From NCBI GenBank assembly GCA_964346295.1, contig CAYFUG010000004.1, forward strand, positions 532-64,531: DNA of 64,000 bases. Direction: 5' to 3'. Of this stretch, positions 9,128 through 60,554 are shown piece by piece. The first letter of the stretch is position 1. Each line of letters begins with the position of its first letter. Made by a program: the position numbers and the translations under genes. Source of the stretch: an uncultured Bdellovibrionales bacterium. Lineage in GTDB: Bacteria; Patescibacteriota; Minisyncoccia; Moranbacterales; DUUL01. The notes beneath the pieces are model-generated. The model did no database searches and was not told the origin of the DNA. It worked only from the letters and a program-made list of their open reading frames with translations.

Positions 9128-9156
9128 TTGACAAGGTTTCAAAAATATGCTACACT
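9128..9156 (+). promoter_or_regulatory. Module 1 promoter P2
   Basis: TTGACA, 17-nt spacer, TGcTACACT. Followed by GTCAAGCTAAGAAAAGG (9162-9178), almost identical to 28912-28928 and 59154-59170. Confidence 0.7.
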
Positions 9157-9958
9157 GTATCGTCAAGCTAAGAAAAGGATTCAGGCGAGCACCTTAAAAG
9201 CACTATCATAAATTATTCTTTGAGGAGAGAGTAATCTATAAAAAGAGTTTAACAATTGGACCTTGAGGGCTAAAAAGATTTTTAAATTAGCTCCCTAGAA
9301 AGGTTGTTATTCAAATTAGATTACAAAGCGGATTTATTTCTCTCTCAAAGTTTTTTCATCGTTTTCTCATCGGCAAGAACGATGGGAACCGACAAGAGGT
9401 GGGAATGAATCCGTTTTTTATTGCTTTTGTGGCAAGCCCGATGGAGGAGAGAGTTAAAATCCAAAAGTTTCCGCGGTTACGAAGTCATAACTATTGAATC
9501 GCGAGAAAGTATTGGCCGTAGTTTTTTCTACACCTTCATCGGGCTTCTCGCAAAGTCGAGGAGCGATTCTCAGCGAAGAATCACTGAACCCAATTTAGAG
9601 CGTTTTAACAGCGCTCCTACAAAGAACCTTACAATCAGGAATTTCTAGAATTTATCTAAAAATTCCTAAAACAAATGTTTAAGCTTTGCTTTTGAAAAAC
9701 CTCCCCGCCGCTATTAACGCTTTGGCGGGGTGCTAAGCAAATCTAATTCTCACTCAGCCTTCAAGGCTGGCTCGGATTGATTTGTTGGCAGAGGAGAGAG
9801 GCTCTAGCAGAAAACTAGAGTTCCCGAGAGGAGAGAGCAAGGTCGAATCATGAACATTTCTTTTGTTTTAGCCGGTCTTTTATAAAGACGGGCGGACATC
9901 TGCCGGTAAGAAGTTTCAACGCAAATTTCTTGCTGGTGATGTCTCTCAACGGAGAGAC

Positions 9959-9977
9959 TGTTCTTTGAAAATCTTAG
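9959..9977 (+). promoter_or_regulatory. boxA-like antitermination motif (module 1)
   Basis: TGTTCTTTGAAAATCTTAG. The core TGTTCTTTGAAAA matches the Gram-positive rrn boxA consensus and the copies at 29130, 32104 and 59261. Confidence 0.55.
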
Positions 9978-11209: not shown

Positions 11210-11685
11210 ACAGTAGCCCCGTTCGTAACTCTCCTCTCTGCTATTTTTATAGTAGAGCAGCGACGAGTGCGTTCGGGGCCTAGCCAAAGATTTTCGTGTG
11301 GTTCAGGGAAAGGAGTTTGTCGGCAACATTCGACAGCTCCTTCCTTCTAAGCTCGGCAACTGAAAGTTTTCAGCTGGTGGTTTTAGAAGGGAATAATGTT
11401 TCCCTAGAGAGTGTATCTCTAAGATATGCTCTAGTTCTTTGACAAGTCCTATTTATACTAGACTCTAAGCTCTGGAGGTTTGATTCTCAAGCTTTTCCCA
11501 TTCCTTAATTTCCTTAAATTCCTAGCTTTACCATCACTGCCTGAGAGCGCAAATACGAATATCCGTTGAAGTAGCGGAAAGTTGTCTAAAATTTGTGCTT
11601 GCAAGTGGTGATGGTAAAAACCCTGGCCGGAATGTTTCCGGTGGGGGTTGGAAGTAATTTTTGAAAAAAGGAAAAAGGAGAAGTC

Positions 11686-12459: not shown

Positions 12460-12758
12460 AAATAGGACTACTAAAGAATAGGATGGGGCGCGCGTTGGAT
12501 CGTCAACCGCGCCTCCCCTATCATCCGGTGAGACCGGATCTGATGAGGTTTTCTGAATAACATTTCAGAGTCAAAGCCGAAATAGGGATTGTTTCTTTGT
12601 AATGTTTTTAGTGGTAAAAGTTAGCCTTTTGTGGGCTGTAGTGTCAAATTCAAAAACCTCTCTCCTCCTCTATTGGTTATAAATACTAGCTATTTAGTCA
12701 CTAGAGTTGAATTTGATGCTCAGCCCAAAGGAGGCTAAGTAAATAAAAAGTAAAAACA

Positions 12759-24118: not shown

Positions 24119-24122
24119 AACG

Positions 24123-24264
24123 GAGCCTTACTCATTTTGAAAATTTCGTTGTTGAAATCCGGGCTTCCCTTTCACCGTACACTTCAGTACGGCTCAAGCA
24201 AAGCCTACCTGCCTGTCGGCAGGCAGGGATTTCGCCTAGAACTCTCCTAAAATGAGAAAGTCTC
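24123..24264. repeat. MITE-like palindromic element, family B
   Basis: TIRs GAGCCTTACTCATTTT / AAAATGAGAAAGTCTC. Core TCACCGTACACTTCAGTACGG hairpin. Confidence 0.65.
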
Positions 24265-25342: not shown

Positions 25343-28009
25343 GTGGAGAGACTTGTTGTCGATAGAAGTGAAGAGAAGAGAAACGGACCGGAAAGAAATC
25401 CGGGGTTTTTTCAGTTAGCTGCTTATCCAAAAGAAGATTGGGATTTGTTAAGGGCTGTGAATAAGGTGTTGTCGAAAGATAGTAGTCGAGTTTATGGTTT
25501 GCAGAGGGCTTTATTGGATTATCCCGAACTAGGGAACGAAGAGACAAAGGAGGTAATTTTAGAAAAGATGGAAGAAGAACTTTTAAGCATTTATTCTGAT
25601 GATTTAAGACTGGAAAATGGAATAAACTCGATAAAAGATGCTTTTGAGGGAATAAGGGGGATTTATTTAGGGAAAATAGAGACAGAGAAGGTTGTGATCG
25701 AGCGAGTCAACCAGCTTTACCCAGCGGAGTTGGAAGCCTTTGAGGATTTATTGGGCGACTTTATAGTTTATAAAAAAGTTTTACCTAAAGATGTTATTCA
25801 GGCAATTTACAGAAATAGGCTAGAGAAAATTGGAAATGTAAATCTTAATAATCTTTTTAGTTATGGAGATGTAGGCTTAGAAAAAGAGTGTTTAGGGGTT
25901 AATGAAAGAATTTTTGAAGCTCTAGAGGAGCTAGCCTTGTTTTCTGATATTTCCGAAGGTCAGAAAGCGGAACTTTTTCAGTCAGTGGCAAGGGGGTTAT
26001 TTGGAAGGGAAAAAAAGTTTTTTGTAGACCCAGAAAAGGCTTTGAGATTTGTAAGAGTCACTTTTCAAAGTCCAGAGACCAAGCGCTATGCCAAGCCACT
26101 TTTCATGAATTATTGGTGGGAGTGGGAGAATGCTATTGAAAAAATGCAGTCAGAAATTGATTTTGAAGATCAGAGCAAGGAGAATATTAGGAAAATAGCA
26201 GAGTTGGCGGAAATTTACGGGGCAGTTTACGGAGAATTGATAAAGAGGGGAATCGAACCTAATAATGATGGGGCAGTTTACATGTTGAATTTTATTAACC
26301 AGGCGGGAGGAGTAGACGATTTTTACCTTAACTTAAAGGTTAAGCAAGCCGTTTTTCTTATTCAGGCTGATGCTTGCCTTTATTATGAGGAAGGCGAGGA
26401 TTGGCAAAAGGAAGGAAGGGCGCAGTTGATTTATAGTGCGGCTCAAACTTTGGGAACTGATCTGCAGCTTAGTGGCGAGGAGCTGCAGCAATTTTTAACT
26501 GATATAAAAGGTTTTTTTGGGCAAAAATTAACTGCCGAAATTGAACCTCTTGTTAAGGGGCAGGTGGCAGCTCCGGGAGTAGAAGGGCATTTTGATGATG
26601 ATTTTGATCTGGTGCTACTGGAGGAGGAGAGAGGCAATGAAGGTGATAGGCTGAAGTTTAGCGAATTTATTAAGTTGAATTACTACGATGTTATTGAAGA
26701 GGGCGATTTTCTGGATTTGATGTTTATGCAAAATTTATTCATCAAGAAGCGAATTTCCCAGGAGTTAGGCGTGGCTTTGCATAACTTAGAGTTGAGAGCT
26801 CAGAATCAGTTTTTAAACTTCATTAAAAATGCCTCCCAGGAGAGAGTGAGACAAGTGGCAGAATTCGTAAAAAATCCAGCAGAAGAAGAGCAGCGCTTAA
26901 ACCGCCTGAGAGTCTTTCTTTCCTTGGAAGAGGGCCATTTTTCAGGAGATCAGCTATTGGACTTGCCTTCCAGGATTGATGCTGACCAAGCGCAGCAAGT
27001 TTTTGACCAGTATGGGAGACTGGTTCAAGACGCTTTTTCGGAGCAGTCGACCCTTCAAGAAGTGCTAAAGAATCCGGAGGATTTGGCCAAAATTGATCAA
27101 GAAAAAATCACTCAAAATTTGCTCTTCCGAGGCCAAAAAATCCTTCAAAGGCTAATTGAGTCTAGCGAGCCAGAGAGAGAGGCAGAAAGTGTTTTATCCA
27201 GCCTTTTAGCACAAAAATGGCAAATTCAACTAGCGGGAGCAGTTTTTAGGGAAGGGATCGAGGCTGGGATGAGTTTAGATGATTTAGAGGGTGGCAGAAT
27301 TGAGGTTTTAACCGTCCAAGACTTAATTCAAAAACCAGAATTGGTGGCTAAAATGAGGGATATTTATTCTAATAATTTCTCCAAAAAACCTGATTTGCAA
27401 GGAGCGGTTTTGCAAGGATTTGATCAAAAAATGACAGAAGGAGGCGTTAATTCGGAGTTTGCTTTGGCCTTTGTGGGCGAAGAATTGGTGGCTTTTAGCC
27501 GCAGTGATCATGTAGACGAAAAAACTCGCTATTTTGCTTCTCTAAACTCTTCTTATGGCGGTGCCAAGTTTGGAGAAGCTCTGAGGAGGAAAAGAGAGGC
27601 TCAGGTGGGAGAAAATTTTGATATTCGGGCTCATAGTGAGCCAGAAAGTGCCATGAGTACGCTGTATATTGGCCCAGAGGGAGGATTTATAGCCGATGGG
27701 GTAGAATTTAATTATCACAACACCGAGGCTAATTTATTCAGTATTACTAGACAAAAAACCCCGCCCAGTTACTATGCTTGGAGTAAGCCTCGAGAAGAGC
27801 TAGTCAAAGAGGCGAAAGAACTTGCGGATAGTGAGATAAGTAGCATTTCTCTAGAAAAGGGTAAGCCTCTGGTTTTAAGCCTCCAGGGGCTAGAAAATAC
27901 ACTAGTGGCACTAAAAACCCTACTCAATGAGCAGGGCGGCCAGTTGACCAATTATTGGTTTCAGGGCGGAAGATATTTTTTAGCTATAGAAAACCCTAAA
28001 TCAAGCTAA
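25343..28009 (+). CDS. Large hypothetical protein (up to 888 aa)
   Basis: Long ORF with a GTG track start; the first ATG is at 25568. No motif recognised. Confidence 0.7.
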   Translation: MERLVVDRSEEKRNGPERNPGFFQLAAYPKEDWDLLRAVNKVLSKDSSRVYGLQRALLDYPELGNEETKEVILEKMEEELLSIYSDDLRLENGINSIKDAFEGIRGIYLGKIETEKVVIERVNQLYPAELEAFEDLLGDFIVYKKVLPKDVIQAIYRNRLEKIGNVNLNNLFSYGDVGLEKECLGVNERIFEALEELALFSDISEGQKAELFQSVARGLFGREKKFFVDPEKALRFVRVTFQSPETKRYAKPLFMNYWWEWENAIEKMQSEIDFEDQSKENIRKIAELAEIYGAVYGELIKRGIEPNNDGAVYMLNFINQAGGVDDFYLNLKVKQAVFLIQADACLYYEEGEDWQKEGRAQLIYSAAQTLGTDLQLSGEELQQFLTDIKGFFGQKLTAEIEPLVKGQVAAPGVEGHFDDDFDLVLLEEERGNEGDRLKFSEFIKLNYYDVIEEGDFLDLMFMQNLFIKKRISQELGVALHNLELRAQNQFLNFIKNASQERVRQVAEFVKNPAEEEQRLNRLRVFLSLEEGHFSGDQLLDLPSRIDADQAQQVFDQYGRLVQDAFSEQSTLQEVLKNPEDLAKIDQEKITQNLLFRGQKILQRLIESSEPEREAESVLSSLLAQKWQIQLAGAVFREGIEAGMSLDDLEGGRIEVLTVQDLIQKPELVAKMRDIYSNNFSKKPDLQGAVLQGFDQKMTEGGVNSEFALAFVGEELVAFSRSDHVDEKTRYFASLNSSYGGAKFGEALRRKREAQVGENFDIRAHSEPESAMSTLYIGPEGGFIADGVEFNYHNTEANLFSITRQKTPPSYYAWSKPREELVKEAKELADSEISSISLEKGKPLVLSLQGLENTLVALKTLLNEQGGQLTNYWFQGGRYFLAIENPKSS

Positions 28010-28762
28010 TTTTCGGGAATAATCCCAGTGAAATTCGAACAGGGATTTGTGCATTTGGTAAATATTGGGATCTTGGATTAGCATAGCGATTTTGTGTTCT
28101 TCTGAAAGGGAGATGTAAATGACTTTTCCTTCGTAAATTTGCATTACAGAACCCGAGAAGGGGTATTTTTCTTGATCAATAAGCTTAATTTCTGTAATAT
28201 CTCGCAGATAATTTTGCAAGTAATTTTTGGCAAAGGCAGAGTCCAGGACCAGAACCTTTTTGTTAAGGTTAAGCTTGGATCTTTTTTTCATGTAGCACTG
28301 ATTGATTTTTTCGGTGTATTTGATAACAGCCTCCAGGTCGGCATAAGTGTAAATAATTTCTTGACTGGTGAGAGTGTCTTCCAGGGCCTCTTGAATGCCT
28401 TCTAGTCCCTCAAAATAGCGGACGTCAGGTTTCTGAGAAACTAAATTAAATTCTGATGTCAGTGCATCTAGATTGGCCGCTAGGTTTTTATGAGTTTTTT
28501 CTAGTTGGGAAGATTGATCGCGGAGTAATTCTTCTAATTGATTAGGGTGTTGAGGATAAAAATGAGTCAATTTTCCCTTTTTTTTGCTAATTACCAGGCT
28601 TTTTTCTTCTAAAGATTCTAAAACATTGTAAACCACCCCCTTTTGGAGGGTGGTTTTTTTAATGATTTCGCTGGCAGGAACTGCTCCAGAGCGAAGCAGG
28701 AATTCGTAAATAGTGGCTTCATTAGGGGTCAGTCCAACTTGAGTAAGGATGTCTTGGTACAT
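28001..28762 (-). CDS. TrmB-family transcriptional regulator (paralog 1)
   Basis: N-terminal wHTH GLTPNEATIYEFLLRSGAVPASEIIKKTTLQKGVVYNVLESLEEKSLV. Divergent from the module 2 promoter. Confidence 0.8.
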   Translation of the reverse strand: MYQDILTQVGLTPNEATIYEFLLRSGAVPASEIIKKTTLQKGVVYNVLESLEEKSLVISKKKGKLTHFYPQHPNQLEELLRDQSSQLEKTHKNLAANLDALTSEFNLVSQKPDVRYFEGLEGIQEALEDTLTSQEIIYTYADLEAVIKYTEKINQCYMKKRSKLNLNKKVLVLDSAFAKNYLQNYLRDITEIKLIDQEKYPFSGSVMQIYEGKVIYISLSEEHKIAMLIQDPNIYQMHKSLFEFHWDYSRKLA

Positions 28763-28877: not shown

Positions 28878-28906
28878 TTGACAATTTTTTAATAATATGC
28901 TACAAT
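28878..28906 (+). promoter_or_regulatory. Module 2 promoter (consensus sigma70, extended -10)
   Basis: TTGACA, 17-nt spacer, TGcTACAAT. A/T-rich upstream tract. Followed by GTCAAGCTAAGAAAAGG (28912-28928). Confidence 0.75.
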
Positions 28907-29129
28907 GCCTTGTCAAGCTAAGAAAAGGGTAAAACTCCGAAGCTTGAAGAACTGAAAGGTTCTAGCCAAATAAGAATAGTTGGCTCTTAGTACATTATAT
29001 CGAGAATAACCACACAACACAAACCACAGGAAAGTTTCTTGCAAGGCTTTTCTAGAGGTGTTTTTTGTGTTGTGGAAACATTCTCTAGCAAGAGCCCTGC
29101 AAAAAACTCTCCTATCACGGGGAGTTTTT

Positions 29130-29154
29130 TGTTCTTTGAAAACTCAGAAATCAG
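29130..29154 (+). promoter_or_regulatory. boxA-like antitermination motif (module 2, leader copy)
   Basis: TGTTCTTTGAAAACTCAGAAATCAG. Preceded by a terminator-like hairpin at 29101-29130. Confidence 0.6.
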
Positions 29155-29172
29155 TAAAGTGGTTTTCTCCTA

Positions 29173-29251
29173 GGGCTTTTGTCCTTGGTAGGCAGCTTAG
29201 TGCTTATGAAAGTTTGTAAGCGCTGAGCTGTTTATCAAGCAAGGAAAGCCC
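29173..29251 (+). promoter_or_regulatory. 79-nt imperfect hairpin after boxA (RNase III-like)
   Basis: GGGCTTT...CCTTG...CAGCTTAGTGCTTAT-GAAAG-...GTAAGCGCTGAGCTG...CAAGG...AAAGCCC. Confidence 0.6.
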
Positions 29252-29335
29252 GGGCGTCCTAGTCACCGGGAAATTTTACAAAAAAATTATCCGGGCTGTA
29301 CTAGGCAGCCCATTTTTCAGAAAAGGAGAAAGACC

Positions 29336-29785
29336 ATGAAGAAGAATTTCAAACTCGTTCCCGGATCCAAAGGTGCTCGCCGCTCCTTCGCCGTTACTTG
29401 TGGCCTGCAAGAGGGCTACGAAGACGGAACCCTTCACACTTTCCAGGAGGCCGTTGAGGTTGCCTTGGAATGGATGAGGGGGCGGGCCGCCGCCGGTGAG
29501 CAGTACTTGACTGGGACCTTCGTCCAGGGTGAGGTGGTGTTTGCCTGGCCCGAAGGCCCTGGCAAGGCCGGTGGCGGTCACGAGGCGACGGTGATTTACC
29601 AGGGCGAGGTCAGCCCGATCTACAACGCGGGCATGACCGATGAAGAGGCCGTCGAGATCCTCAATGACCTGGCGGCCCATCTGGGGACCGCTCTGGGCCA
29701 GACCCGGGTCTATGTCGCCTTGTGCGACCAGATCTGGATTCTCCAGGCGGAAGAGACGGAAACCCCCACCGGGGAGACCGTCTAG
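29336..29785 (+). CDS. GC-rich cargo protein 2a (149 aa), unknown function
   Basis: AAAGGAGAAAGACC-ATG. GC3-rich. Antisense shadow ORFs are present. Confidence 0.75.
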   Translation: MKKNFKLVPGSKGARRSFAVTCGLQEGYEDGTLHTFQEAVEVALEWMRGRAAAGEQYLTGTFVQGEVVFAWPEGPGKAGGGHEATVIYQGEVSPIYNAGMTDEEAVEILNDLAAHLGTALGQTRVYVALCDQIWILQAEETETPTGETV

Positions 29786-30072
29786 CGGCCGTTTTTCTGT
29801 CCCCCTTCAATTTGCTTTTGGCATTTAGGAGGGGGCAGCGCTGATTTCTGAGTAAGAGGGTTCAAGGAAGGCGGATTCACATTGTGCGTCCGCCTCCTTT
29901 TCTCAAATCTCAAGTTTAATTGAGGTTTGAGATGAAGGATTGCACCTTGAAAAATTTTCCCTATTTCTCCTTTCAATTGCCTTTTTTCACTTAGTGAAAA
30001 CAAATCCAACTTCGTTGATTGAAGTGAGGCAATTGACGATTTTCAACTGAAAAAAGGGAGAGGAGAAGGGGC

Positions 30073-30513
30073 ATGAAAATTCGAGTCAGGGATCCCAAAG
30101 AGGCGGCCGCCATTACCGGTGGCTGCACCTTTGAACCGGCTATCGGTTGGTGGACCTATACCGACCAGCCGGAAGAGCACGGAAGGCTGGGGCGGCTGTT
30201 TGAGGGGGAGCGGGATGCTTTATATATCCCCACACTCCAGAAAAATGGTCAGCCGGTGGCGGAAGAGGCCATTGCCCGCTTTAAGGTGCGAGCCAAGGAG
30301 TTGGGTTTTGGTGAAATCTCCGGAGCCTCCGGTATGTGGATTTTGTCCGACACGGGGGAGGCCCAGGTCGAGTACATCTGGATCTGTTGGGCTTCCCAAG
30401 TTTCGGATGAGACGCGGTCTCAGATGGCCGCGTTGGCAGAGGAAATCAAAGCCGCCACTAACCAGGACTGCGTGGCCTGGGAAAACGGCGGCCAGCTATT
30501 TTTCACGGGATAA
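30073..30513 (+). CDS. GC-rich cargo protein 2b (146 aa), unknown function
   Basis: GGGAGAGGAGAAGGGGC-ATG. Confidence 0.75.
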   Translation: MKIRVRDPKEAAAITGGCTFEPAIGWWTYTDQPEEHGRLGRLFEGERDALYIPTLQKNGQPVAEEAIARFKVRAKELGFGEISGASGMWILSDTGEAQVEYIWICWASQVSDETRSQMAALAEEIKAATNQDCVAWENGGQLFFTG

Positions 30514-30526
30514 GGAGGAGACACTT

Positions 30527-31306
30527 ATGAAACGGATTTTTGTTGTCCCTATCAACGATGGGGAGGCGGTAGAGATTAGGAATCTCCTACAGGATGGCGG
30601 TGAAGTGGTTGTGGAAAGCGTCCTCCGTTGGGGAGCCCGATGGGAGAAGCTGGAACCGGAGGTGGTGGCGGAGATCGAAAGGCTTCGCTCCCTTAATCCG
30701 GGAGTTCAGATCTACGGCGTGGAGCTGGCCGGCCCCAATCAGTGGGGGGCTCGCAACATCGACCACCACAAGTACCAGGATGAGGATCGGAGTAATTCCA
30801 AGTCCTCCCTGGAGCAAGTGGCGGAGTTGTTGGGCGTCCAGCTGACCCGGCACCAATTTTTGGTTTCGGAGAATGACAAGGGTTGGATCCCGGCGCTAAT
30901 AGCGGCCGGAGCCAGTCCCGACGAGATCGAACTGGTGCGGGCGCAGGATCGCCAGGCCCAGGGGGTTACCCCTGACGACGAAGCCCAGGCTCTTCGGGAT
31001 ATCGAGGCGGCCCAGTGGCAAGGTCGGAAGGTCTGGCTCCAGTGTCTCAAGGGGGCCACCTCGGCCCACACTGACCGGCTCTTTGGTCAGTTTGACGAAG
31101 CCCTGACGGTGGATGGGGTCAACGGAAAGTGGATCTATTTTGGTCCGCGATCCGAAGATTTCTTCGCCCTCACCGAAGGGGGCACCGAAGGGATACGCTG
31201 GAAAAGCCCTCGACCAGGGGGGTACTCCGGGGCGGAAAAGCCCCAGGAGGAGACCCAGGAAGCAATCCGGAATTTTTTTGGGAGTAATTCCCTTACCTCT
31301 TTTTAG
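30527..31306 (+). CDS. GC-rich cargo protein 2c (259 aa), contains NIDHH motif; unknown function
   Basis: Start taken at the ATG after TAAGGAGGAGACACTT, 14 nt after the 2b stop. The track ORF 30119-31306 has an implausible N-terminal extension that overlaps 2b. Confidence 0.75.
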   Translation: MKRIFVVPINDGEAVEIRNLLQDGGEVVVESVLRWGARWEKLEPEVVAEIERLRSLNPGVQIYGVELAGPNQWGARNIDHHKYQDEDRSNSKSSLEQVAELLGVQLTRHQFLVSENDKGWIPALIAAGASPDEIELVRAQDRQAQGVTPDDEAQALRDIEAAQWQGRKVWLQCLKGATSAHTDRLFGQFDEALTVDGVNGKWIYFGPRSEDFFALTEGGTEGIRWKSPRPGGYSGAEKPQEETQEAIRNFFGSNSLTSF

Positions 31307-31457
31307 CTAAGACGCACTAAGGAGAAGGACAAAATCAGCGTCGGGTTCAGATGGGCTGGCGAGAACCTCGTTAGCCCATCCTTTCCTAGTTCAGCACTAA
31401 AGTGGTGGTGGGCTAAGAAGGGATTAACGAAAAATCACCAAAAAAGGAGGCCCCAAA

Positions 31458-32003
31458 GTGTCTTTAACAAAAGAGCAATTCTCCAGATTAGCGAAGGTAG
31501 CGCTCCAGGTGGCAAAAGAGCGGGGCCAGAGCTTTTACGGGTGGGTTAATCCGCCTCAAATAGAGAGTGGAAAATTGACCCATGACTCCGGAAAAGGACC
31601 CCAGAAGATTTCTCCGGAAGAATCCCTGGCGATTTATAAGAGGAAGCTGGACGGGGTCTATGGGGAGAGATTCATTACCTCTTTGGGCACAATAGCTGCT
31701 TTGATAGCCAATGGCTATTCGGTGCGGCTGGTGCAGTTTTACAAGGAGGTAGGCCTGCCTTTTGACGCGGAGGGTTGGCTAGTGGTGATAATCGAAACCA
31801 TGCCAATTTTCCATGTTTCGCCGGGGGATCTGCGCCTGGAGCAGGTGGCGGATCTGGTTGAGGTGCTAGATGACAATCAAGCGCCCGATGTCTGCCACAA
31901 GGGCACCGACAAGCCGGGAGAGTTTGCGGCTCTTTTGCAGGGCTCTCTTTCTCCGGAGTTGGATTTGGTCAAGATTGCCCAGGAAAACAGTGGCAATTTT
32001 TGA
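31458..32003 (+). CDS. GC-rich cargo protein 2d (181 aa), unknown function
   Basis: AAAAAGGAGGCCCCAAA-GTG start. Confidence 0.7.
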   Translation: MSLTKEQFSRLAKVALQVAKERGQSFYGWVNPPQIESGKLTHDSGKGPQKISPEESLAIYKRKLDGVYGERFITSLGTIAALIANGYSVRLVQFYKEVGLPFDAEGWLVVIIETMPIFHVSPGDLRLEQVADLVEVLDDNQAPDVCHKGTDKPGEFAALLQGSLSPELDLVKIAQENSGNF

Positions 32004-32037
32004 TTCTGTCTACTTTCGATTTTCGTTCATTTCCAAT

Positions 32038-32084
32038 GGATCAGGTGTCATTGTGCATCTGATCCGGAATTCTGAGCTTAGCTC
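32038..32084 (+). promoter_or_regulatory. Conserved trailer element: hairpin plus CCGGAATTCTGAGCTT
   Basis: GGATCAGGTG...CATCTGATCC hairpin, then CCGGAATTCTGAGCTTAGCTC. Homologous to 60573-60616. Partly complementary to the transcript 5' end at 28914-28924. Confidence 0.5.
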
Positions 32085-32103
32085 TATTAAGAGGTAGGTT
32101 CAG

Positions 32104-32128
32104 CGTTCTTTAAAAACTCAGAAATCAG
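32104..32128 (+). promoter_or_regulatory. boxA-like motif (module 2, internal spacer copy)
   Basis: CGTTCTTTAAAAACTCAGAAATCAG. Confidence 0.55.
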
Positions 32129-32269
32129 GAAAATCCAACTTTCTATCTTTTCTCTTTGTCTTCTAAAAGTTGTTGGTTACCCGAGAGAATTTAATCTAGT
32201 TAATGAACTGAATTAGCCAGTTAAGTTTTTTTGGGCAACCAACAACCAAGGAAAGAGAAGGAGGAAGAC

Positions 32270-32518
32270 ATGAGATACCAAGGAGCGAGAGAATACAAGG
32301 GCCAGAGGGTGGAAATCCAGCTGCGGGCTGGGGGCAATAATCCCGGAAACGCCTCGGTAACGCTGGTTATCAAAATGGATGGCCAGGAGGTTTTTCGGAG
32401 AAGTGCCGGCCGAGACGGAATGGGCCAGGTGGAAGCCCTGGCCGTGGCTGAAGTGGCCAAGGTCCAAGAGTTGGGCGAAGAAATATATATCGTCCAGTTC
32501 AATGCCGAAGCTATCTAG
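32270..32518 (+). CDS. GC-rich cargo protein 2e (82 aa), unknown function
   Basis: GAAGGAGGAAGAC-ATG. The track ORF starts at an upstream TTG. Confidence 0.65.
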   Translation: MRYQGAREYKGQRVEIQLRAGGNNPGNASVTLVIKMDGQEVFRRSAGRDGMGQVEALAVAEVAKVQELGEEIYIVQFNAEAI

Positions 32519-32703
32519 CCCTTACCTTAGAATTTTTTTGATTTCTAGGCCCTCTCCATCAGGCCTCCTGCGAAGTTAGCAGGTTTTAAAAATTTGGATG
32601 GTAGTCCGAGCGGCGGAAATGACTCAAAACTATCCGCAAAATTAGCCCTGACAATCAGGGCCGGCCGAGGCAAGCGCAATGCCGCTTTAGCCTAAGAGGC
32701 CAC

Positions 32704-32836
32704 CAAAAGGCCCGAAAGAGTCTGGCCAACGCGCTAAATCTTTCGGAGGGACGAACTTGTTGAACACAACATTTTCGTCCCCTCTACTAGCAACTTAATT
32801 TGAGACTTGATCTTTTATTGAGTTGCTTGAGAGAAT
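32704..32836 (+). repeat. 133-bp direct repeat, copy 1 (structured element flanking cargo gene 2f)
   Basis: 131/133 identical to 34003-34135. Contains GGCCCGAAAGAGTCTGGCC and GAGGGACGAA...TTCGTCCCCTC hairpins. Confidence 0.9.
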
Positions 32837-32852
32837 CTATTTTGAAAGGCGA

Positions 32853-32864
32853 GTTCTTTGAAAT
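32853..32864 (+). promoter_or_regulatory. Short boxA-core-like string
   Basis: GTTCTTTGAAAT. Only the core is conserved. Confidence 0.35.
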
Positions 32865-32924
32865 ATATCCAAAGCTTCATTGTAATCTTTGGGTACTTCA
32901 ACCAAACCAGAAAAGGGGGATGCC

Positions 32925-33971
32925 ATGGGTAAATTTCAGGAAATCACACTGGAATTATTGTTGGAAAATGAAGTTTTGAGGAAGTATCTTCTCAAGGCAA
33001 GAATTGGTCCAGCTAAAAAAGGCGACGGTGCTTTTGTGGGGACTTATGATATTGCCCCGAAGGAGTTTCGGAGTTTTGGAATTGTTTTGCCCAGGGGCGG
33101 GATGATTATTCCAGGGGCAGATCCTGTCAAGTTAAAGGAAATGGTCAAGGAGCCTGAGCGCCGGCGTGAGGCGGAGGACTTGGCAAATCGTCGTGCTGTT
33201 GAAAAAGATTATCTCAATCAGGTGAAAGAGATAATTGCTGAAGCTGGCCTCACGGATATTGAAGTGGTGGAAGAAGACGGAGTGGACTTCCATAGTATCG
33301 GCGCCACCAGCTGGCACAAGAGCTTTTTGGTAAGAGAAGGAGAGAAAATCTTCAGTCTTCACAGCGAAGAGGAGCCGTATCGTGGCTTAGATGACGATGG
33401 TTCGTACGAGCCGTGGAGGACGGAGTTTACTCCGTTGGAAGAGGTGAAATCCTTCCTTGAAGAGGAGGCGCGTCTTGTTGGTCCGAGAAAAATGTTTGCT
33501 GATCGGATCAGGCGGCTTATTGATATAAGCCACAATGTTGGTCAGCAAGGGCCAGATGAAACTGGCTGGGATCGCCCTCGAGTGGAATTATTTTTGTACG
33601 ATGACTATAAAAAAGGCAGGGACTGGGGTTTTTTCGGTCATCGTTGTCAGGGTATCTCTTCGGCCCACAGGATTTACTATCGAAAAAAACTCTATGAGAT
33701 TACCGAAGAAGGCATTTCTCGCCTTGAGTATGAAATCGGAGAAAGGGAGGAGGCGCTAGAAGCAAGACGAGCGATGCTCAAAAGACTCTTCGAAGAGAAG
33801 GGCAGAGTTTTTGAGGAACTCAAAGAAGAGAAAGATTGCTATGCCGGAAAGTCACTGGCAACCGGCAAGGCAAAGTACGATGAGTGGACTGAAACGCGCT
33901 ACTTTCTCGGCGACACAGAAGTTACCGAGGAAGAGCGTGATTGGCTGAAGGGCTTACCTAAGGATAATTAG
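32925..33971 (+). CDS. Cargo protein 2f (348 aa), Glu/Arg-rich, unknown function
   Basis: AAAAGGGGGATGCC-ATG. The track start at 32889 is a TTG. Confidence 0.75.
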   Translation: MGKFQEITLELLLENEVLRKYLLKARIGPAKKGDGAFVGTYDIAPKEFRSFGIVLPRGGMIIPGADPVKLKEMVKEPERRREAEDLANRRAVEKDYLNQVKEIIAEAGLTDIEVVEEDGVDFHSIGATSWHKSFLVREGEKIFSLHSEEEPYRGLDDDGSYEPWRTEFTPLEEVKSFLEEEARLVGPRKMFADRIRRLIDISHNVGQQGPDETGWDRPRVELFLYDDYKKGRDWGFFGHRCQGISSAHRIYYRKKLYEITEEGISRLEYEIGEREEALEARRAMLKRLFEEKGRVFEELKEEKDCYAGKSLATGKAKYDEWTETRYFLGDTEVTEEERDWLKGLPKDN

Positions 33972-34002: not shown

Positions 34003-34135
34003 CAAAAGGCCCGAAAGAGCCTGGCCAACGCGCCAAATCTTTCGGAGGGACGAACTTGTTGAACACAACATTTTCGTCCCCTCTACTAGCAACTTAATTT
34101 GAGACTTGATCTTTTATTGAGTTGCTTGAGAGAAT
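34003..34135 (+). repeat. 133-bp direct repeat, copy 2
   Basis: See 32704-32836. There are two substitutions between the copies. Confidence 0.9.
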
Positions 34136-34169: not shown

Positions 34170-34204
34170 AAAAAAGCGCCGGTATTAGTCCCGGCGCTTT
34201 TTTA
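34170..34204. terminator. Strong bidirectional intrinsic terminator (end of module 2; also downstream of gyrA)
   Basis: AAAAAAGCGCCGG-TATTAGTC-CCGGCGCTTTTTT. Confidence 0.8.
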
Positions 34205-38586: not shown

Positions 38587-39073
38587 AATGGTTTAAAAAA
38601 GGATTTAAGTTACTTGACAATCAATTGAGAAAAAGATAACTTCTAACTTAATTGCTTTTTATTGAGTCCGCTAAGGCAGCGTAACATTTTTTAGGGAATA
38701 AATCTACCCCCTGAGTAAGGAGGACTGGACTTTCTTGGAAAATGTTGTTAATATTGTAGACATAATTTGTCAGACTTCCTTAGGAGGGTAAATTAATTCC
38801 TGTTTAATTTCTTTAATATGCCTTAAATAAGGGTAAATTTAAAAAAGAAATTTTAATTAGGAAATTGATTAAGAGTTTTAATTTTATGTTAATGATCTTA
38901 ATTTAATTTCTCAAAATTTAATTTCTCATCTCAAAAGGGATTAGTTTATTTTTCTGGAAAATCTGAAATTTAATCTACGACTTGAACTCTGCTTGCTGGC
39001 TAGACTTGCAAAATTTAGAGAAGCAGTTTATAATAAAGTTAGAAATGCAGGAGGGTCAAGTTTTAAAAGAGTT

Positions 39074-39868
39074 ATGATGTTAGATGAAGAATTGATTAAA
39101 CTGGGCCTTTCCGAGAAAGAGGCAAAAGTTTACTTGGGGGCAATTCAATTAGGAGCCTCCACTGTCCAAAAAATTTCTCAGAAGTCTCAAGTTAACCGGG
39201 CGACTACTTATGTGATTATCGAGAGTTTAATGCGAATGGGCTTGATGTCTACTTTCGAGGAAGGTAGAAAAACTTTCTATGTTGCAGAGAAGCCTCGTCG
39301 TTTGGTAGAGTTCTATAAAAATAAGAAGACTCGCCTGGATGAGAAGATTGAAAGGTTAAGCGAGATCGTGCCGGAGTTGAATTCTCTTTATAACGATCAT
39401 TCCGACCGACCCAGAGTGAAGTATTATGAGGGCAGTGAGGGTTTATTAGCGATTTATGATGATTTCGAAAGTACTTTATCAGGGGGGCAAGAGATATTAA
39501 TATTTACTCCCATTGATGATTTCAAGAAAATCAAGAAGCCTCAGATGAGTCAAAGGATTGAGAAGTTTAGAGACAAGAGATTGAAAAAAGGAGTGAGAGC
39601 CAGGACTATATATAGCTCTGCGAGCGGAAGGGACGAAATATTTGAAGAAAGTATTAGAAAATTAGGTGAAGAGATCCTATTTTTAGAAAAAGATAAGAGT
39701 GGTCTCAATGGTTTAGACGCGGGTTTAAATGTTTATGGTAATAAGGTTTTCCTTTTTAGTTACCAAGGCAAGAGAGGCGGAGTTTTGATAGAGAGTCAAA
39801 GCGTGGCCAATCTTTTAGGAGGTATATTTGAAATAGTTTGGTCTCATTTGAAATCTTTAAAAAAGTGA
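39074..39868 (+). CDS. TrmB-family transcriptional regulator (paralog 2)
   Basis: LGLSEKEAKVYLGAIQLGASTVQKISQKSQVNRATTYVIIESLMRMGL. Start moved to the ATG preceded by TTGCAA-17-TATAAT. The track start at 38993 is a TTG. Confidence 0.75.
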   Translation: MMLDEELIKLGLSEKEAKVYLGAIQLGASTVQKISQKSQVNRATTYVIIESLMRMGLMSTFEEGRKTFYVAEKPRRLVEFYKNKKTRLDEKIERLSEIVPELNSLYNDHSDRPRVKYYEGSEGLLAIYDDFESTLSGGQEILIFTPIDDFKKIKKPQMSQRIEKFRDKRLKKGVRARTIYSSASGRDEIFEESIRKLGEEILFLEKDKSGLNGLDAGLNVYGNKVFLFSYQGKRGGVLIESQSVANLLGGIFEIVWSHLKSLKK

Positions 39869-44218: not shown

Positions 44219-44320
44219 AAATTTTGGTGTCAAAATCTCCGCTACTCCCTCACCGTAACTCTCAGTACGCCTCGCTCGCTGCTCGATTTCTCCTAAAAAT
44301 TTCCTAAAAAATGAAAGTCC
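44203..44320. repeat. 118-bp MITE-like palindromic element, family B, overlapping the GT4 stop
   Basis: TIRs GACTTCCATTTTTTGAAAATTTT / AAAATTTCCTAAAAAATGAAAGTCC. Core CTCACCGTAACTCTCAGTACG. Confidence 0.75.
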
Positions 44321-49652: not shown

Positions 49653-49754
49653 AAATTTTGGTGTTGCAAGCTGCGTTTGGCACTCACCGTACCCTTCAGT
49701 ACGGCTCGCACCAAGCCTCGCTTGCGCCTAAAAATTTCCTAAAATTTGGAAGCC
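49637..49754. repeat. 118-bp MITE-like palindromic element, family B, overlapping the NuoF-like stop
   Basis: TIRs GGCTTCCAAATTTTGAAAATTTTGGTG / CCTAAAAATTTCCTAAAATTTGGAAGCC. Core CTCACCGTACCCTTCAGTACGG. Confidence 0.8.
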
Positions 49755-59119: not shown

Positions 59120-59148
59120 TTGACAAATATTAATTATTATGCTACAAT
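59120..59148 (+). promoter_or_regulatory. Module 3 promoter (consensus sigma70, extended -10)
   Basis: TTGACA, 17-nt spacer, TGcTACAAT. A/T-rich upstream. Followed by GTCAAGCTCAGAAAAGG (59154-59170). Confidence 0.75.
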
Positions 59149-59260
59149 GCTCTGTCAAGCTCAGAAAAGGTTCAGATTCGTGGGTTTTGATTGTTGGAAT
59201 AATTTTGAGATCCGGAAAAAGGCTTAAAAAGCTTTTCTCGGGCTCTCAAAGCAGAGCCTA

Positions 59261-59285
59261 GGTTCTTTGAAAACTTAGAAATCAG
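59261..59285 (+). promoter_or_regulatory. boxA-like antitermination motif (module 3)
   Basis: GGTTCTTTGAAAACTTAGAAATCAG. Confidence 0.6.
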
Positions 59286-59324
59286 TTACTTCGAGATTCT
59301 TACTTGGAAATTGATAAAGAGGGT

Positions 59325-59384
59325 AGTTATCAGTCTTTTGAGGCTCTAAATTGCAAAATTTGGGGCTTGAGATGACTGATAACT
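59325..59384 (+). promoter_or_regulatory. 22-bp-stem hairpin after boxA (RNase III-like or terminator-like)
   Basis: AGTTATCAGTCTTTTGAGGCTC pairs with GGGCTTGAGATGACTGATAACT (2 mismatches, several G-U pairs). Followed by TATTTTTTATTTT. Confidence 0.6.
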
Positions 59385-59420
59385 TATTTTTTATTTTCTT
59401 TTATCAACAAGGAGGATATC

Positions 59421-60554
59421 ATGAAAAAAATTTTTTTATACAGTCCGGGCGCGGATCTGCTCCTTTCCTGGGGCGCTCATTTGATCGAACGGCCTGATCT
59501 GTCAATCGAACGGGACATGCTCGCGGGCGCGATCAGCGAATGGAACCGGAACGAATTGCTGGCGGATTTCCTGGAATCCTGGCCGACCATGCTGGAAGAC
59601 GCCAACAAGGCGCAAGCGTTTTTTGAAGCTCGTCCCGTCATTCCCAATGATTTCACCGATCCTGACTGGAATGAGGCCATTGACGCCCTGCGGGCGTTCG
59701 ACCAGGTCGTTCATCTGTGGGTCGCGGTCGAAGACTTGTTCAGTGACAACGCGCCGGAAGTCATCGACGAACTGGAAGGCCGTTGTTACGACATTTCCGA
59801 ATGGCTTGACAACGCCGAATCGTTTACCAGCCTTCGTCTGGCCCCCTTGAACGAATGGCGGAAAAACCGGATTGAACGCGTCGAAGCGTCTTCCCGGTTC
59901 CTGTTTCCCTGGCTTGCCGATATGGCATGGGCCCCCGCCGACGCGCTGGAACAGCTTGAAGCCCATTGGAACGCGGTTCGGGAAAAAGGCGTTGGCGGCC
60001 TTTCATTTATCGCCGAGCCGGACCGCCTCATTTTCTGGGATTATTTAAAACGCGACATCGGGCTTCAGCAGGAAATGGAAAACCGCCGGCGGCTGGACAT
60101 CGCCATCGCCGACGCCGTGGATCAGAGCCTTCCGCTTCAACTGTTGCGGGTATACGAGAAGCATGTGCAAATATCCGACGTGCCGGAACACGTCCTTCGC
60201 CATGGACTGGCCAACGCGGCCTGCGCCGCCCTGACGGGCGACCGGCATGACGAAGCGTCCCATGAAGACCTGGGCCCCGCCCTGGAAGCGGCCATGGCGC
60301 AAAACGCTCCCATCGAGCGCGTGCTGACGACCGCCCTTTGCGGCCCCTTTCTTACCGACGCCCAGCGGCTTGCCGCGTTCAAGCGGGCCGCGATGAAGCT
60401 GGAAAAAGACGTCTCGGTGGGCGGTTTGGAGGGAATCTTCACCCAGGTGGACCTATGGATGAAAAACGAACTGACGGACGGCGATTTTGCCGACGCGATG
60501 ATGGCCGCCTGGGACCGGATGGCGGAAAACGCCATGAAAGGAGGTGATAACTGA
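59421..60554 (+). CDS. GC-rich cargo protein 3 (377 aa), unknown function
   Basis: CAAGGAGGATATC-ATG. GC3-rich. Several shadow ORFs on both strands. Confidence 0.8.
   Translation: MKKIFLYSPGADLLLSWGAHLIERPDLSIERDMLAGAISEWNRNELLADFLESWPTMLEDANKAQAFFEARPVIPNDFTDPDWNEAIDALRAFDQVVHLWVAVEDLFSDNAPEVIDELEGRCYDISEWLDNAESFTSLRLAPLNEWRKNRIERVEASSRFLFPWLADMAWAPADALEQLEAHWNAVREKGVGGLSFIAEPDRLIFWDYLKRDIGLQQEMENRRRLDIAIADAVDQSLPLQLLRVYEKHVQISDVPEHVLRHGLANAACAALTGDRHDEASHEDLGPALEAAMAQNAPIERVLTTALCGPFLTDAQRLAAFKRAAMKLEKDVSVGGLEGIFTQVDLWMKNELTDGDFADAMMAAWDRMAENAMKGGDN

What the first reader, a model, noticed from the sequence alone, without database searches (positions are those of the whole stretch)
29101..29904. 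Terminator-like hairpins placed inside the modules suggest antitermination-dependent expression
Several hairpins followed by U-runs lie between the promoter and the cargo, or between cargo genes:
- AACTCTCC-TATCAC-GGGGAGTTTTTT (29105-29130) abuts the boxA motif.
- GGAAGGCGGA...TCCGCCTCCTTTTCTC (29866-29904) lies between cargo genes 2a and 2b.
- GGGCTG...CAGCCCATTTTT (29293-29317) lies just before the first SD.
- In module 3 the 22-bp hairpin (59325-59384) is followed by TATTTTTTATTTT just before the SD.

The module 2 leader also has mutually exclusive helices. CCACACAACACAAA pairs with TTTGTGTTGTGG, while TTCTTGCAAGGCTTTTCTAGAG can pair with CTCTAGCAAGAGCCCTGCAA. Together with boxA, this resembles a processive-antitermination or attenuation design.
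Basis: partly seen in the sequence, partly recalled or inferred. Interest (0 to 1): 0.55.

Follow-up and report, generated by a model that had tools for sequence, protein, structure and literature searches.

The report
Structured leaders with boxA sites
The hairpins are real RNA structures in the untranslated parts of rRNA-operon-style expression cassettes of a probable Patescibacteria chromosome, but nothing shows they are regulated terminators: they fit better as a stem-loop next to the boxA site and as mRNA end-protection or processing hairpins.

Summary
All four hairpins and both alternative helices exist at the stated coordinates, give or take one base. They fold far better than shuffled sequence (z -3.7 to -8.5; whole leader z -9.6).

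The terminator reading is weak:
- A U-rich tail follows 8 of 37 module hairpins against a 15% background (p=0.20).
- Internal terminator-like hairpins are absent from most of 33 related modules.
- Hairpin 1 ends immediately 5' of boxA, so boxA cannot suppress it.
- Hairpin 1 forms in both alternative folds (-49.4 and -47.0 kcal/mol), so helices A and B do not gate it.

What is supported:
- Six boxA-like sites (GTTCTTTGAAAA, up to 1 mismatch) lie on the + strand in module non-coding DNA, against 1.9 expected.
- Five of the six are directly preceded by a hairpin of unrelated sequence, the boxB position of rRNA leaders.
- Cargo genes have a hairpin just 5' of the Shine-Dalgarno site (p=0.0013 against host genes). 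All eight 2a-homologue loci have one, but only the window copy carries a U-run.

Best reading: an rRNA-style Nus/boxA loading platform plus stability or processing hairpins. Interpretation partly supported.

Side result: the cargo are stand-alone relatives of type III CRISPR accessory proteins (SAM lyase fold, NrN, truncated Csx30).

The parts
28001..28762 (-). TrmB-family regulator, divergent from the module 2 promoter
   Evidence: Pfam PF01978, E 1e-10. The same divergent arrangement occurs at module 3 (58052-58837) and in L004 and L006.
28878..28906 (+). Module 2 promoter: TTGACA, 17-nt spacer, TACAAT with an extended TG
   Evidence: 11 of 12 consensus positions. Paralogues at 9046, 9128 and 59120 (family D1). 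The same promoter family occurs in Patescibacteria MAGs and metagenomes.
28913..28947 (+). Hairpin at the predicted 5' end of the transcript (UCAAGCU...AGCUUGA)
   Evidence: Present in the MFE fold. The CAAGCU...AGCUUG pairing recurs after the same promoter in many related loci.
29010..29102 (+). Bistable element: helix A (29010-29023 with 29064-29075) or helix B (29036-29057 with 29083-29102)
   Evidence: Constrained folds give -49.4 and -47.0 kcal/mol. Conservation could not be tested.
29100..29131 (+). Hairpin 1: 13-bp stem including the A6/U6 extension, in the boxB position directly 5' of boxA. By sequence it also has intrinsic-terminator form.
   Evidence: -16.8 kcal/mol, z -5.9. It forms in both leader conformers. 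Five of six boxA copies in the window have such a hairpin.
29131..29154 (+). boxA-like GTTCTTTGAAAA plus the conserved downstream CTCAGAAATCAG (boxC position)
   Evidence: Repeat family D12. Motif enrichment. More accessible than its flanks in the folding ensemble.
29174..29250 (+). Long, G.U-rich hairpin with a 26-bp core; candidate site for a double-strand-specific RNase
   Evidence: -46 kcal/mol on the + strand against -24 on the complement; 8 G.U pairs.
29293..29317 (+). Hairpin 2 (7 bp) plus AUUUUU, 11 nt before the Shine-Dalgarno site at 29323-29328
   Evidence: -13.1 kcal/mol. It belongs to a class of hairpins next to the Shine-Dalgarno site found at cargo genes.
29336..29785 (+). Cargo 2a, 149 aa, SAM lyase / SAM-AMP lyase-like fold
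   Evidence: 54 homologues. AlphaFold2 pLDDT 92.8. Foldseek hits 6zm9/6znb at E 2e-6 and 9gad.
29746..29797 (+). Hairpin spanning the 2a stop codon, plus GUUUUUC
   Evidence: -21.1 kcal/mol.
29866..29904 (+). Intercistronic hairpin plus UUUUCUC, 81 nt after the 2a stop
   Evidence: -21.0 kcal/mol, z -5.9. Analogous hairpins with U-rich tails follow the 2a homologues in L004 and L122 only.
29959..30071 (+). Helix that pairs the Shine-Dalgarno region of 2b (GGGAGAGGAGAAGGGG) with an upstream CCCUAUUUCUCCUUUC
   Evidence: -39 kcal/mol fold.
30527..31306 (+). Cargo 2c, NrN-type DHH phosphodiesterase homologue
   Evidence: PADLOC DHH_CorA, E 3e-31. PDB NrN 9lq9, E 1e-17.
32072..32128 (+). Second hairpin plus boxA/boxC-like unit, between 2d and 2e
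   Evidence: Hairpin -17.1 kcal/mol. boxA with 1 mismatch. Repeat family D12.
34173..34200 (.). Canonical bidirectional terminator at the end of module 2
   Evidence: 10-bp GC stem with U-runs on both strands.
59120..59148 (+). Module 3 promoter
   Evidence: 11 of 12 consensus positions.
59240..59285 (+). Module 3 hairpin plus boxA/boxC-like unit
59325..59396 (+). 22-bp, G.U-containing hairpin plus U-rich tail, before the Shine-Dalgarno site of 3a
   Evidence: -33 kcal/mol on the + strand against -17 on the complement.
59421..60554 (+). Cargo 3a: N-terminal two thirds of a type III-E Csx30
   Evidence: NCBIfam NF041234, E 4e-45, profile positions 2-347 of 560. 92% nucleotide identity to csx30 of L159.
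9941..9971 (+). Module 1 leader hairpin plus boxA
11408..11445 (+). Module 1 internal hairpin plus boxA (GTTCTTTGACAA)

Best explanation
The hairpins are functional RNA structures in the untranslated parts of rRNA-operon-style expression cassettes.

Each cassette has:
- a near-consensus sigma-70 promoter, paired with a divergent TrmB-family regulator at modules 2 and 3;
- a long, very structured leader;
- one or more units of hairpin, boxA and a conserved downstream motif, in the boxB-boxA-boxC order of rRNA leaders;
- GC-rich, horizontally acquired genes.

Proposed mechanism (inferred, not shown):
1. As boxA RNA emerges, NusB-NusE and the other Nus factors load on RNA polymerase. The adjacent stem may contribute.
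2. The polymerase becomes processive across several kilobases of structured, partly untranslated RNA. This includes the weak terminator-like hairpins downstream of boxA (29293-29317, 29746-29797, 29866-29904, 59325-59396).
3. The conserved job of those downstream hairpins is more likely protection or processing of mRNA 5' and 3' ends, and control of ribosome access, than regulated termination.
4. Hairpin 1 is first of all the boxB-position stem. Its U6 tract lies before boxA, so it can only act as a boxA-independent brake that ends a fraction of transcripts as a roughly 218-nt leader RNA. Helices A and B do not gate it.
For: boxA sites:
- Six sites with up to 1 mismatch against 1.9 expected, all on the + strand and in module non-coding DNA.
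- An extended 24-28-nt conserved unit is present in three copies (family D12).
- boxA-like motifs occur in the non-coding parts of distant homologous modules.
- nusB and rnc lie next to the module in the relative L003.

Hairpin next to boxA:
- Five of six window boxA copies have a hairpin ending 0-2 nt upstream, with unrelated stem sequences. With the 26% control frequency, my binomial estimate for 5 of 6 is about 0.006.
- NusB-NusE has a dsRNA site contiguous with its boxA site (PMC3177189).

RNA-level structure:
- Leaders are extremely structured (z -9.6) and strand-asymmetric through G.U pairs.
- Hairpins next to the Shine-Dalgarno site are stronger at cargo genes than at host genes (median -8.7 against -4.8 kcal/mol, p=0.0013).
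- Such a hairpin is present in all eight 2a-homologue loci.

Terminator form:
- The host's own terminators have the same A-tract, GC stem and U-tract form as hairpins 1 and 2. Some termination at these sites is therefore credible.

Precedent:
- BoxA-dependent protection of long non-rRNA transcripts is established for CRISPR arrays (PMC7665894).
Against: - No rRNA operon of this organism could be recovered, so the motif's identity as this lineage's boxA rests on its resemblance to rRNA boxA sequences of other bacteria (my own knowledge).
- Hairpin-boxA adjacency is not general outside this genome: 10 of 22 sites against 26% of controls, p=0.13.
- U-runs after hairpins are not enriched (p=0.20).
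- Most related modules have no canonical terminator-like hairpin in the first 1.5 kb.
- Leaders have G equal to or above C and are highly structured, so they are not obvious Rho substrates.
- In E. coli the rRNA antitermination system acts mainly against Rho (own knowledge).
- In L149 and L151 the motif sits directly against the Shine-Dalgarno site, which hints at a different role, for example in translation.
- No nus genes or rho are in the window.
Confidence: 0.4

Rival explanations
1. Processing and stability only. The hairpins are RNase (for example RNase III) sites and protectors of 5' and 3' ends, which turn a polycistronic precursor into stable individual mRNAs. The U-runs are a by-product of U-rich spacers, and no termination or antitermination decision is made at them.
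For: - Hairpins next to the Shine-Dalgarno site are conserved by position in all eight 2a-homologue loci without U-runs, and are enriched against host genes.
- There are 22-26-bp G.U-rich duplexes.
- Self-cleaving ribozymes occur in the same kind of spacer: a type III hammerhead in L121 directly 5' of boxA, and a hammerhead candidate at window 12516-12587.
- rnc lies next to the module in L003.
- U-tails are not enriched.
Against: - It does not explain the conserved boxA units.
- Hairpins 1 and 2 are indistinguishable in form from the host's own terminators.
- This reading is compatible with, rather than exclusive of, the best explanation.
Confidence: 0.3
2. Attenuator or riboswitch-like switch. 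The bistable helices A and B sense a ligand, protein, temperature or translation of a leader peptide, and so decide whether hairpin 1 terminates.
For: - The two conformers lie within 2.4 kcal/mol of each other.
- There are weak, sub-threshold Rfam resemblances to attenuator leaders: Phe_leader at 29.9 bits against a cut-off of 55, plus rnk and rimP.
Against: - Hairpin 1 forms in both conformers. Helix B overlaps only about 3 nt of its A/U extension.
- No ATG lies in the leader. The only reading frame (GTG at 29058) has a poorly spaced Shine-Dalgarno-like sequence.
- No Rfam family reaches its threshold.
- No comparable element occurs in modules 1 or 3.
Confidence: 0.08
3. Separate small RNA. 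The promoter mainly makes a roughly 218-nt structured RNA (28913-29130) that ends at hairpin 1, a true terminator. The cargo is expressed only by occasional read-through or from another start.
For: - Hairpin 1 has full intrinsic-terminator anatomy: A6, GC stem, U6, -16.8 kcal/mol.
- The 5' segment is highly structured.
- The 5' end motif is conserved across lineages.
Against: - Other modules place boxA 40-800 nt from the start with no U-run terminator before it.
- No second promoter is predicted before 2a.
- The leader body is not conserved.
Confidence: 0.12
4. Chance. The hairpins and U-runs are accidental features of AT-rich intergenic DNA.
For: - The simple terminator scan is not enriched.
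- U-tails are at background frequency.
Against: - Fold z-scores run from -3.7 to -9.6.
- G.U strand asymmetry is strong.
- Hairpins recur at fixed positions before boxA and before the Shine-Dalgarno site.
Confidence: 0.05

Closest known systems
rRNA operon antitermination site (boxB-boxA-boxC with NusA/B/E/G and accessory factors)
   Same: - A U-rich boxA 12-mer close to rRNA boxA sequences.
- A stem-loop directly 5' of boxA and a conserved motif 3' of it.
- Further boxA copies in internal spacers.
- Tandem promoters at module 1.
- Long processing-type stems.
   Different: - The cargo is protein-coding, horizontally acquired genes; no rRNA is present in the window.
- The factor set and activity are untested.
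- Hairpin 1 carries a U6 tract.
BoxA-mediated antitermination of non-rRNA transcripts (CRISPR arrays; PMC7665894)
   Same: boxA is placed near the start of a long, largely untranslated transcript outside rRNA operons.
   Different: - Here the transcripts are mRNAs with several boxA copies.
- The leaders are not C-rich, so the need to counter Rho is unclear.
Phage lambda N/nut antitermination
   Same: A strong promoter, a promoter-proximal boxA plus stem-loop, and terminator-like hairpins inside the operon.
   Different: - The order is hairpin then boxA (lambda has boxA then boxB).
- No N-like protein was identified.
- The locus is not a prophage.
Intercistronic and 5' stabiliser hairpins and RNase III sites (phage T7 early mRNA, ompA-type 5' stem-loops)
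   Same: Stable hairpins just 5' of Shine-Dalgarno sites and after stop codons, and 22-26-bp duplexes.
   Different: No cleavage data exist. Some of the hairpins carry U-runs.
Terminator/antiterminator attenuators (trp, T-box, riboswitches)
   Same: Two mutually exclusive helices lie upstream of a terminator-like hairpin.
   Different: The terminator is not part of the competition, and there is no leader peptide or known aptamer.

Membership tests
rRNA-type boxA / Nus-factor loading site | A single-stranded, U-rich 12-mer matching the lineage's rRNA boxA | tested here: inconclusive
   GTTCTTTGAAAA is enriched and conserved and relatively accessible. It resembles rRNA boxA sequences of other bacteria (own knowledge). 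The organism's own rRNA operon could not be obtained for comparison.
rRNA-type boxA / Nus-factor loading site | A stem-loop (boxB) next to boxA | tested here: met
   Five of six copies in the window. This is not general in other lineages (10 of 22, p=0.13).
rRNA-type boxA / Nus-factor loading site | NusB-NusE binding and boxA-dependent read-through | not testable with these tools
   Needs binding assays and in vitro transcription. nusB was only seen in the relative L003.
Intrinsic (factor-independent) terminator | A GC-rich stem of 5-14 bp, a short loop, and a U-tract immediately 3' | tested here: met
   Met for hairpins 1 and 2, which have the same form as the host's gene-end terminators. The 29866 hairpin meets it partly. 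The 22-bp stem of module 3 is atypical.
Intrinsic (factor-independent) terminator | The hairpin plus U-tract combination is conserved or enriched | tested here: not met
   8 of 37 against a 15% background. Absent from most related modules. U-run lacking in 7 of 8 2a-homologue loci.
Transcription attenuator / riboswitch | An antiterminator helix mutually exclusive with the terminator stem | tested here: not met
   Hairpin 1 forms in both conformers.
Transcription attenuator / riboswitch | A known aptamer or leader-peptide family | tested here: not met
   No Rfam family reaches threshold. No credible leader ORF.
Integron gene cassettes (attC) | An integrase plus attC imperfect palindromes with R''/R' core sites at cassette ends | not tested
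   No systematic attC or integrase search was run. No integrase appeared among the roughly 30 window ORFs scanned against Pfam. I did not notice GTTRRRY/RYYYAAC boundary sites when reading the spacers. Considered only as a lead.

The most novel reading that the evidence does not exclude
The modules are a Patescibacteria-wide capture-and-express platform. The platform comprises:
- a TrmB-controlled consensus promoter;
- a hairpin at the transcript's 5' end;
- boxA units;
- processing hairpins and hammerhead ribozymes.

It drives stand-alone copies of type III CRISPR accessory proteins taken from other organisms:
- a SAM/SAM-AMP lyase-like protein;
- an NrN phosphodiesterase;
- Csx3 ring nucleases in relatives;
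- a Csx30 truncated before the region where its protease is reported to cut (own knowledge).

An episymbiont could use these to blunt the CRISPR signalling of its host or neighbours. On this reading, boxA-dependent processivity is what lets foreign GC-rich genes behind long structured leaders be expressed.
Probability: 0.15. Interest if true: 0.85.

Novelty: new variant of a known kind. Interest (0 to 1): 0.45.

Why it matters
If boxA units really load Nus factors here, this would be a use of the rRNA antitermination machinery for protein-coding, horizontally acquired genes in Patescibacteria. Transcription control in that group is essentially unstudied. It would also give a simple sequence signature (promoter, 5' hairpin, boxA) for finding such cassettes.

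The hairpins themselves are ordinary mRNA architecture unless 3'-end mapping shows regulated termination.

The cargo adds interest: relatives of SAM-AMP-degrading enzymes and a truncated Csx30, with no CRISPR effector in the window. The platform may express anti-CRISPR-type functions.

Tried and rejected
Searches that gave nothing useful:
- A metagenome scan for the extended boxA unit GTTCTTTRAAAACTYAGAAATCAG found nothing, not even the source contig.
- The genome scan with the promoter/+1 pattern returned mostly chance matches. Only about 11 were true promoters, and none lay upstream of rRNA.
- Rfam at gathering and at relaxed thresholds found no family in the leaders. There were only sub-threshold attenuator-like and miRNA-like hits.

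Covariation could not be tested:
- L002 is 99.95% identical to the window.
- The nearest 2a homologues are at most 68% identical, and the nearest TrmB homologues at most 57%.
- The close 3a homologues sit inside type III-E operons with no homologous leader.
- A MAFFT alignment of the six hairpin-boxA units is not structure-aware, so it was not used for pair counts.

Ideas considered and dropped:
- Leader-peptide attenuation: no ATG in the leader.
- Integron attC sites: not systematically tested. No integrase was noticed among the ORFs scanned.
- Cargo being mis-called structured RNA or rRNA fragments: GC3 > GC1 > GC2 and 54 protein homologues show real coding.
- Prophage: no phage structural or integrase genes were found among the ORFs scanned against Pfam; the PHROGs scan covered the cargo proteins only.
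- A second, upstream boxA that could act on hairpin 1: none within 3 mismatches.
Full report
**Setting**

The window is contig Ga0153774_1000134 of JGI metagenome 3300012002. It is a bacterial chromosome fragment with about 41% GC. It carries IspG (GcpE), SecDF, GyrA, MnmA, RNase P RNA and many ORFs with no family match. Its characteristic promoter recurs in MAGs labelled Patescibacteria, Falkowbacteria, Moranbacteria and Parcubacteria, so I treat the organism as a probable Patescibacterium. That is an inference.

- Each follows a near-consensus promoter, TTGACA-N17-TACAAT followed by GTCAAGCTAAGAAAAGG. There are four copies (family D1).
- Each has copies of GTTCTTTGAAAA.
- Cargo ORFs have GC3 of 0.59-0.76 against 0.37-0.48 for host genes. 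The order GC3 > GC1 > GC2 confirms the reading frames.

**Observation**

| Element | Coordinates | Energy (kcal/mol) | z |
|---|---|---|---|
| Hairpin 1, with A6/U6 extension (13 bp) | 29100-29131 | -16.8 | -5.9 |
| Hairpin before the 2a Shine-Dalgarno site | 29293-29311 | -13.1 | -3.7 |
| Intercistronic hairpin | 29866-29897 | -21.0 | -5.9 |
| Module 3 hairpin | 59325-59384 | -33.2 | -8.5 |

- The whole 428-nt leader folds at -167 kcal/mol, z -9.6.
- The long stems are rich in G.U pairs and about twice as stable on the + strand as on the complement (29160-29250, which holds the 29174-29250 stem: -46 against -24; 59321-59387: -33 against -17). This argues for function as RNA.
- Helices A and B exist and define two conformers at -49.4 and -47.0 kcal/mol.

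**Are they terminators?**

By form, hairpins 1 and 2 match the host's own gene-end terminators: A-tract, 7-11-bp GC stem and U5-6. Examples are at 7529, 8987, 15250, 34173 and 60675. Three tests nevertheless fail to single them out.
1. Among 37 stable hairpins in the non-coding parts of the three modules, 8 have a U-rich tail. The background frequency of such windows is 15% (binomial p=0.20).
2. A strict terminator scan of the first 1.5 kb of 33 modules sharing this promoter family found 14 sites against 4.8 +/- 2.0 in shuffles. Three of the 14 are in module 2 of the window. Modules 1 and 3 and most other modules have none.
3. All eight loci carrying a homologue of cargo 2a have a GC-rich hairpin just 5' of the Shine-Dalgarno site, with unrelated stem sequences. 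Only the window copy is followed by a U-run.

Cargo genes as a group have stronger pre-Shine-Dalgarno hairpins than host genes (median -8.7 against -4.8 kcal/mol; Mann-Whitney p=0.0013). The conserved feature is therefore a hairpin next to the Shine-Dalgarno site, not a terminator.

**Hairpin 1 and boxA**

GTTCTTTGAAAA with up to one mismatch occurs six times: 9960, 11434, 29131, 32105, 32853 and 59262.
- All six are on the + strand and in module non-coding DNA. The expectation is 1.9, and none of 100 shuffles reached six.
- Three copies share a 24-28-nt unit that includes CTCAGAAATCAG (family D12).
- Five of the six are directly preceded (0-2 nt) by a hairpin of unrelated sequence. This is the boxB-boxA-boxC order of rRNA leaders.
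- NusB-NusE has a dsRNA site contiguous with its boxA site (PMC3177189).

Outside this genome the adjacency is not general: 10 of 22 sites against 26% of control positions, p=0.13.

- Its U-tract ends at 29130 and boxA begins at 29131. No boxA-like sequence within 3 mismatches lies between the predicted start and hairpin 1. boxA RNA therefore does not yet exist when the polymerase would terminate there.
- Hairpin 1 forms in both the helix A and the helix B conformers, so the bistable element is not an antiterminator for it.

No ATG-initiated leader peptide is present, and Rfam gives only sub-threshold resemblances to attenuator leaders.

**Support for processive antitermination in general**

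- boxA-like motifs occur in spacers of distant homologous modules: L119, L121, L122, L142, L146, L149, L151 and others.
- A relative has nusB and rnc next to its module (L003).
- BoxA-dependent protection of long non-rRNA transcripts has precedent (PMC7665894).

Against this:
- The leaders have G equal to or above C and are highly structured, so they are not obvious Rho substrates.
- In L149 and L151 the motif abuts the Shine-Dalgarno site.
- The organism's rRNA operon could not be recovered to confirm that this motif is its boxA.

**Processing**

- A type III hammerhead ribozyme lies in L121 directly 5' of a boxA-like motif, between a 2a homologue and the next gene. Rfam RF00008 gives 42.7 bits, E 2e-6, below the gathering score of 48.5. 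The core is intact.
- The window has a candidate of the same type at 12516-12587. Stems I, II and III are 7, 6 and 5 bp, with CUGAUGA...GAAA and a predicted cut after C12522. A descriptor search found none in 300 shuffled windows. Rfam does not report it even at E up to 10, so it remains a candidate.
- Together with the 22-26-bp duplexes, this makes RNA processing a serious alternative or complement to termination.

**Conclusion on mechanism**

The most likely picture (confidence about 0.4) is an rRNA-style Nus/boxA platform.
- Hairpin 1 is the boxB-position stem and at most a boxA-independent brake.
- The downstream hairpins are mainly stability, processing or translation-control elements. 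A modified polymerase would read through them.

Rivals:

| Rival | Confidence |
|---|---|
| Processing and stability only | 0.30 |
| A separate ~218-nt leader RNA ending at hairpin 1 | 0.12 |
| A genuine attenuator | 0.08 |
| Chance | 0.05 |

Nucleotide-level covariation could not be tested. The only close sequence is 99.95% identical, and the nearest homologues of 2a and of the TrmB regulator are at most 68% and 57% identical.

**What the cargo is**

- 2a belongs to a 54-member unnamed family. Its AlphaFold2 model (pLDDT 92.8) matches phage SAM lyase (6zm9/6znb, E 2e-6, TM 0.60-0.73) and the SAM-AMP lyase of CorA-type III CRISPR systems (9gad).
- 2c matches the PADLOC CorA-associated DHH profile (E 3e-31) and PDB NrN (9lq9, E 1e-17).
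- 3a matches NCBIfam Csx30 of type III-E systems above the curated cut-off, but only profile positions 2-347 of 560.
- 3a is 92% identical at the nucleotide level over 59434-60537 to csx30 in L159, from the sister sample 3300012009. The homology stops at the ORF ends.
- L159 and L160 are type III-E CRISPR-Cas loci. L160 encodes Csx29, an RpoE-like sigma factor, Csx31, Csx30 and Cas7-11. The shorter L159 holds a Csx31 C-terminal fragment, Csx30 and Cas7-11.
- Homologues of 2a elsewhere sit beside Csx3-domain proteins and bpMoxR-VWA pairs.
- No Cas effector is in the window.

TrmB-family regulators are divergent from modules 2 and 3 and from the modules in L004 and L006. This echoes repressor-controlled strong promoters of anti-CRISPR operons (own knowledge). 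These points do not bear on whether the hairpins terminate, but they raise the interest of the cassettes as a whole.

Noticed in passing
window 59421-60554; L159 358-2088; L160 6001-7719: Cargo 3a is the N-terminal two thirds of a type III-E Csx30 (NCBIfam NF041234, E 4e-45, profile positions 2-347 of 560). It is 92% identical at the nucleotide level to csx30 in a type III-E locus from the sister sample (L160 shows the full Csx29, RpoE-like, Csx31, Csx30, Cas7-11 set). The homology stops at the ORF ends, and no Cas7-11 or Csx29 is in the window.
   Followed up: partly
window 29336-29785 and 30527-31306: Cargo 2a has a SAM lyase / SAM-AMP lyase-like fold (Foldseek E 2e-6). Cargo 2c is an NrN-type DHH phosphodiesterase homologue (PDB 9lq9, E 1e-17; PADLOC DHH_CorA). 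Both resemble enzymes that degrade the SAM-AMP signal of CorA-type III CRISPR systems, yet stand alone here.
   Followed up: partly
window 12516-12587 (+): Candidate type III hammerhead ribozyme 57 nt after the stop of ORF 11686-12459. Stems are 7, 6 and 5 bp, with a CUGAUGA...GAAA core and a predicted cut after C12522. There were no descriptor hits in 300 shuffled windows, but Rfam does not report it. An upstream hairpin (12479-12520) overlaps the 5' arm of stem III.
   Followed up: partly
L121 1395-1449: Type III hammerhead ribozyme (Rfam RF00008, 42.7 bits, E 2e-6, just under the gathering score). It lies directly 5' of a boxA-like GTTCTTTGACAA, between a 2a homologue and the next gene.
   Followed up: partly
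window 9128-9173, 28878-28923, 59120-59165; loci L030-L098 and L123-L158: A promoter family, TTGACA-N15-GCTAYAMTG-N4-RTCAAGCT, is shared across Patescibacteria MAGs and metagenomes. The start of the transcript usually forms a CAAGCU...AGCUUG hairpin. In the window the -35 TTGACAA and the +1 TTGTCAA form an inverted repeat that could be an operator. In one lineage the same promoter drives a tRNA (L127, L131, L134, L138).
   Followed up: partly
window 28001-28762 (-), 58052-58837 (-), 38993-39868 (+): TrmB-family regulators are transcribed divergently from the promoters of modules 2 and 3, and likewise in L004 and L006. They are likely the transcriptional regulators of the cassettes.
   Followed up: partly
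window 9224, 9446, 9793, 9830; leaders of L004, L006, L155: A GGAGAGAG motif (often RGGAGAGAG in or next to a hairpin) recurs in module leaders of several lineages. A related GAGAGTTAGAGTGG occurs in the leaders of L036, L038, L063, L067 and L144. Its meaning is unknown.
   Followed up: no
window 32704-32836 and 34003-34135: 133-nt direct repeats, 98% identical, flank ORF 32889-33971. This suggests a recent duplication or a cassette boundary.
   Followed up: no
window 29336-33971: GC3 of the module 2 genes falls with distance from the promoter: 0.76, 0.67, 0.68, 0.59, 0.63, 0.48.
   Followed up: no
window 29959-30071: A long helix pairs the Shine-Dalgarno region of 2b with an upstream pyrimidine tract, giving possible translational control of 2b.
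   Followed up: no
window 60537-60548: A near-perfect extended Shine-Dalgarno sequence, AAAGGAGGTGAT, sits at the 3' junction where homology to csx30 ends, just before the 3a stop codon. It may be a remnant of a neighbouring cassette.
   Followed up: no
window 32030-32116 and 60565-60672: The spacers after 2d and after 3a share an element: a GGATCAGG...hairpin, then GGAATTCTGAGCTT, then a second hairpin. It ends in a boxA in module 2 and in a degenerate AATTCTTGAGTGA in module 3.
   Followed up: no
L003 1126-8260: In a relative, the GC-rich module is inserted between rpsP and the KH-protein/trmD genes of a conserved ribosomal operon, next to nusB and rnc. This indicates that the modules are inserted islands.
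   Followed up: no
window 24122-24206, 44200-44284, 49634-49718, about 58880: REP-like intergenic repeats containing CACCGTAC...CAGTACGG recur after host genes.
   Followed up: no
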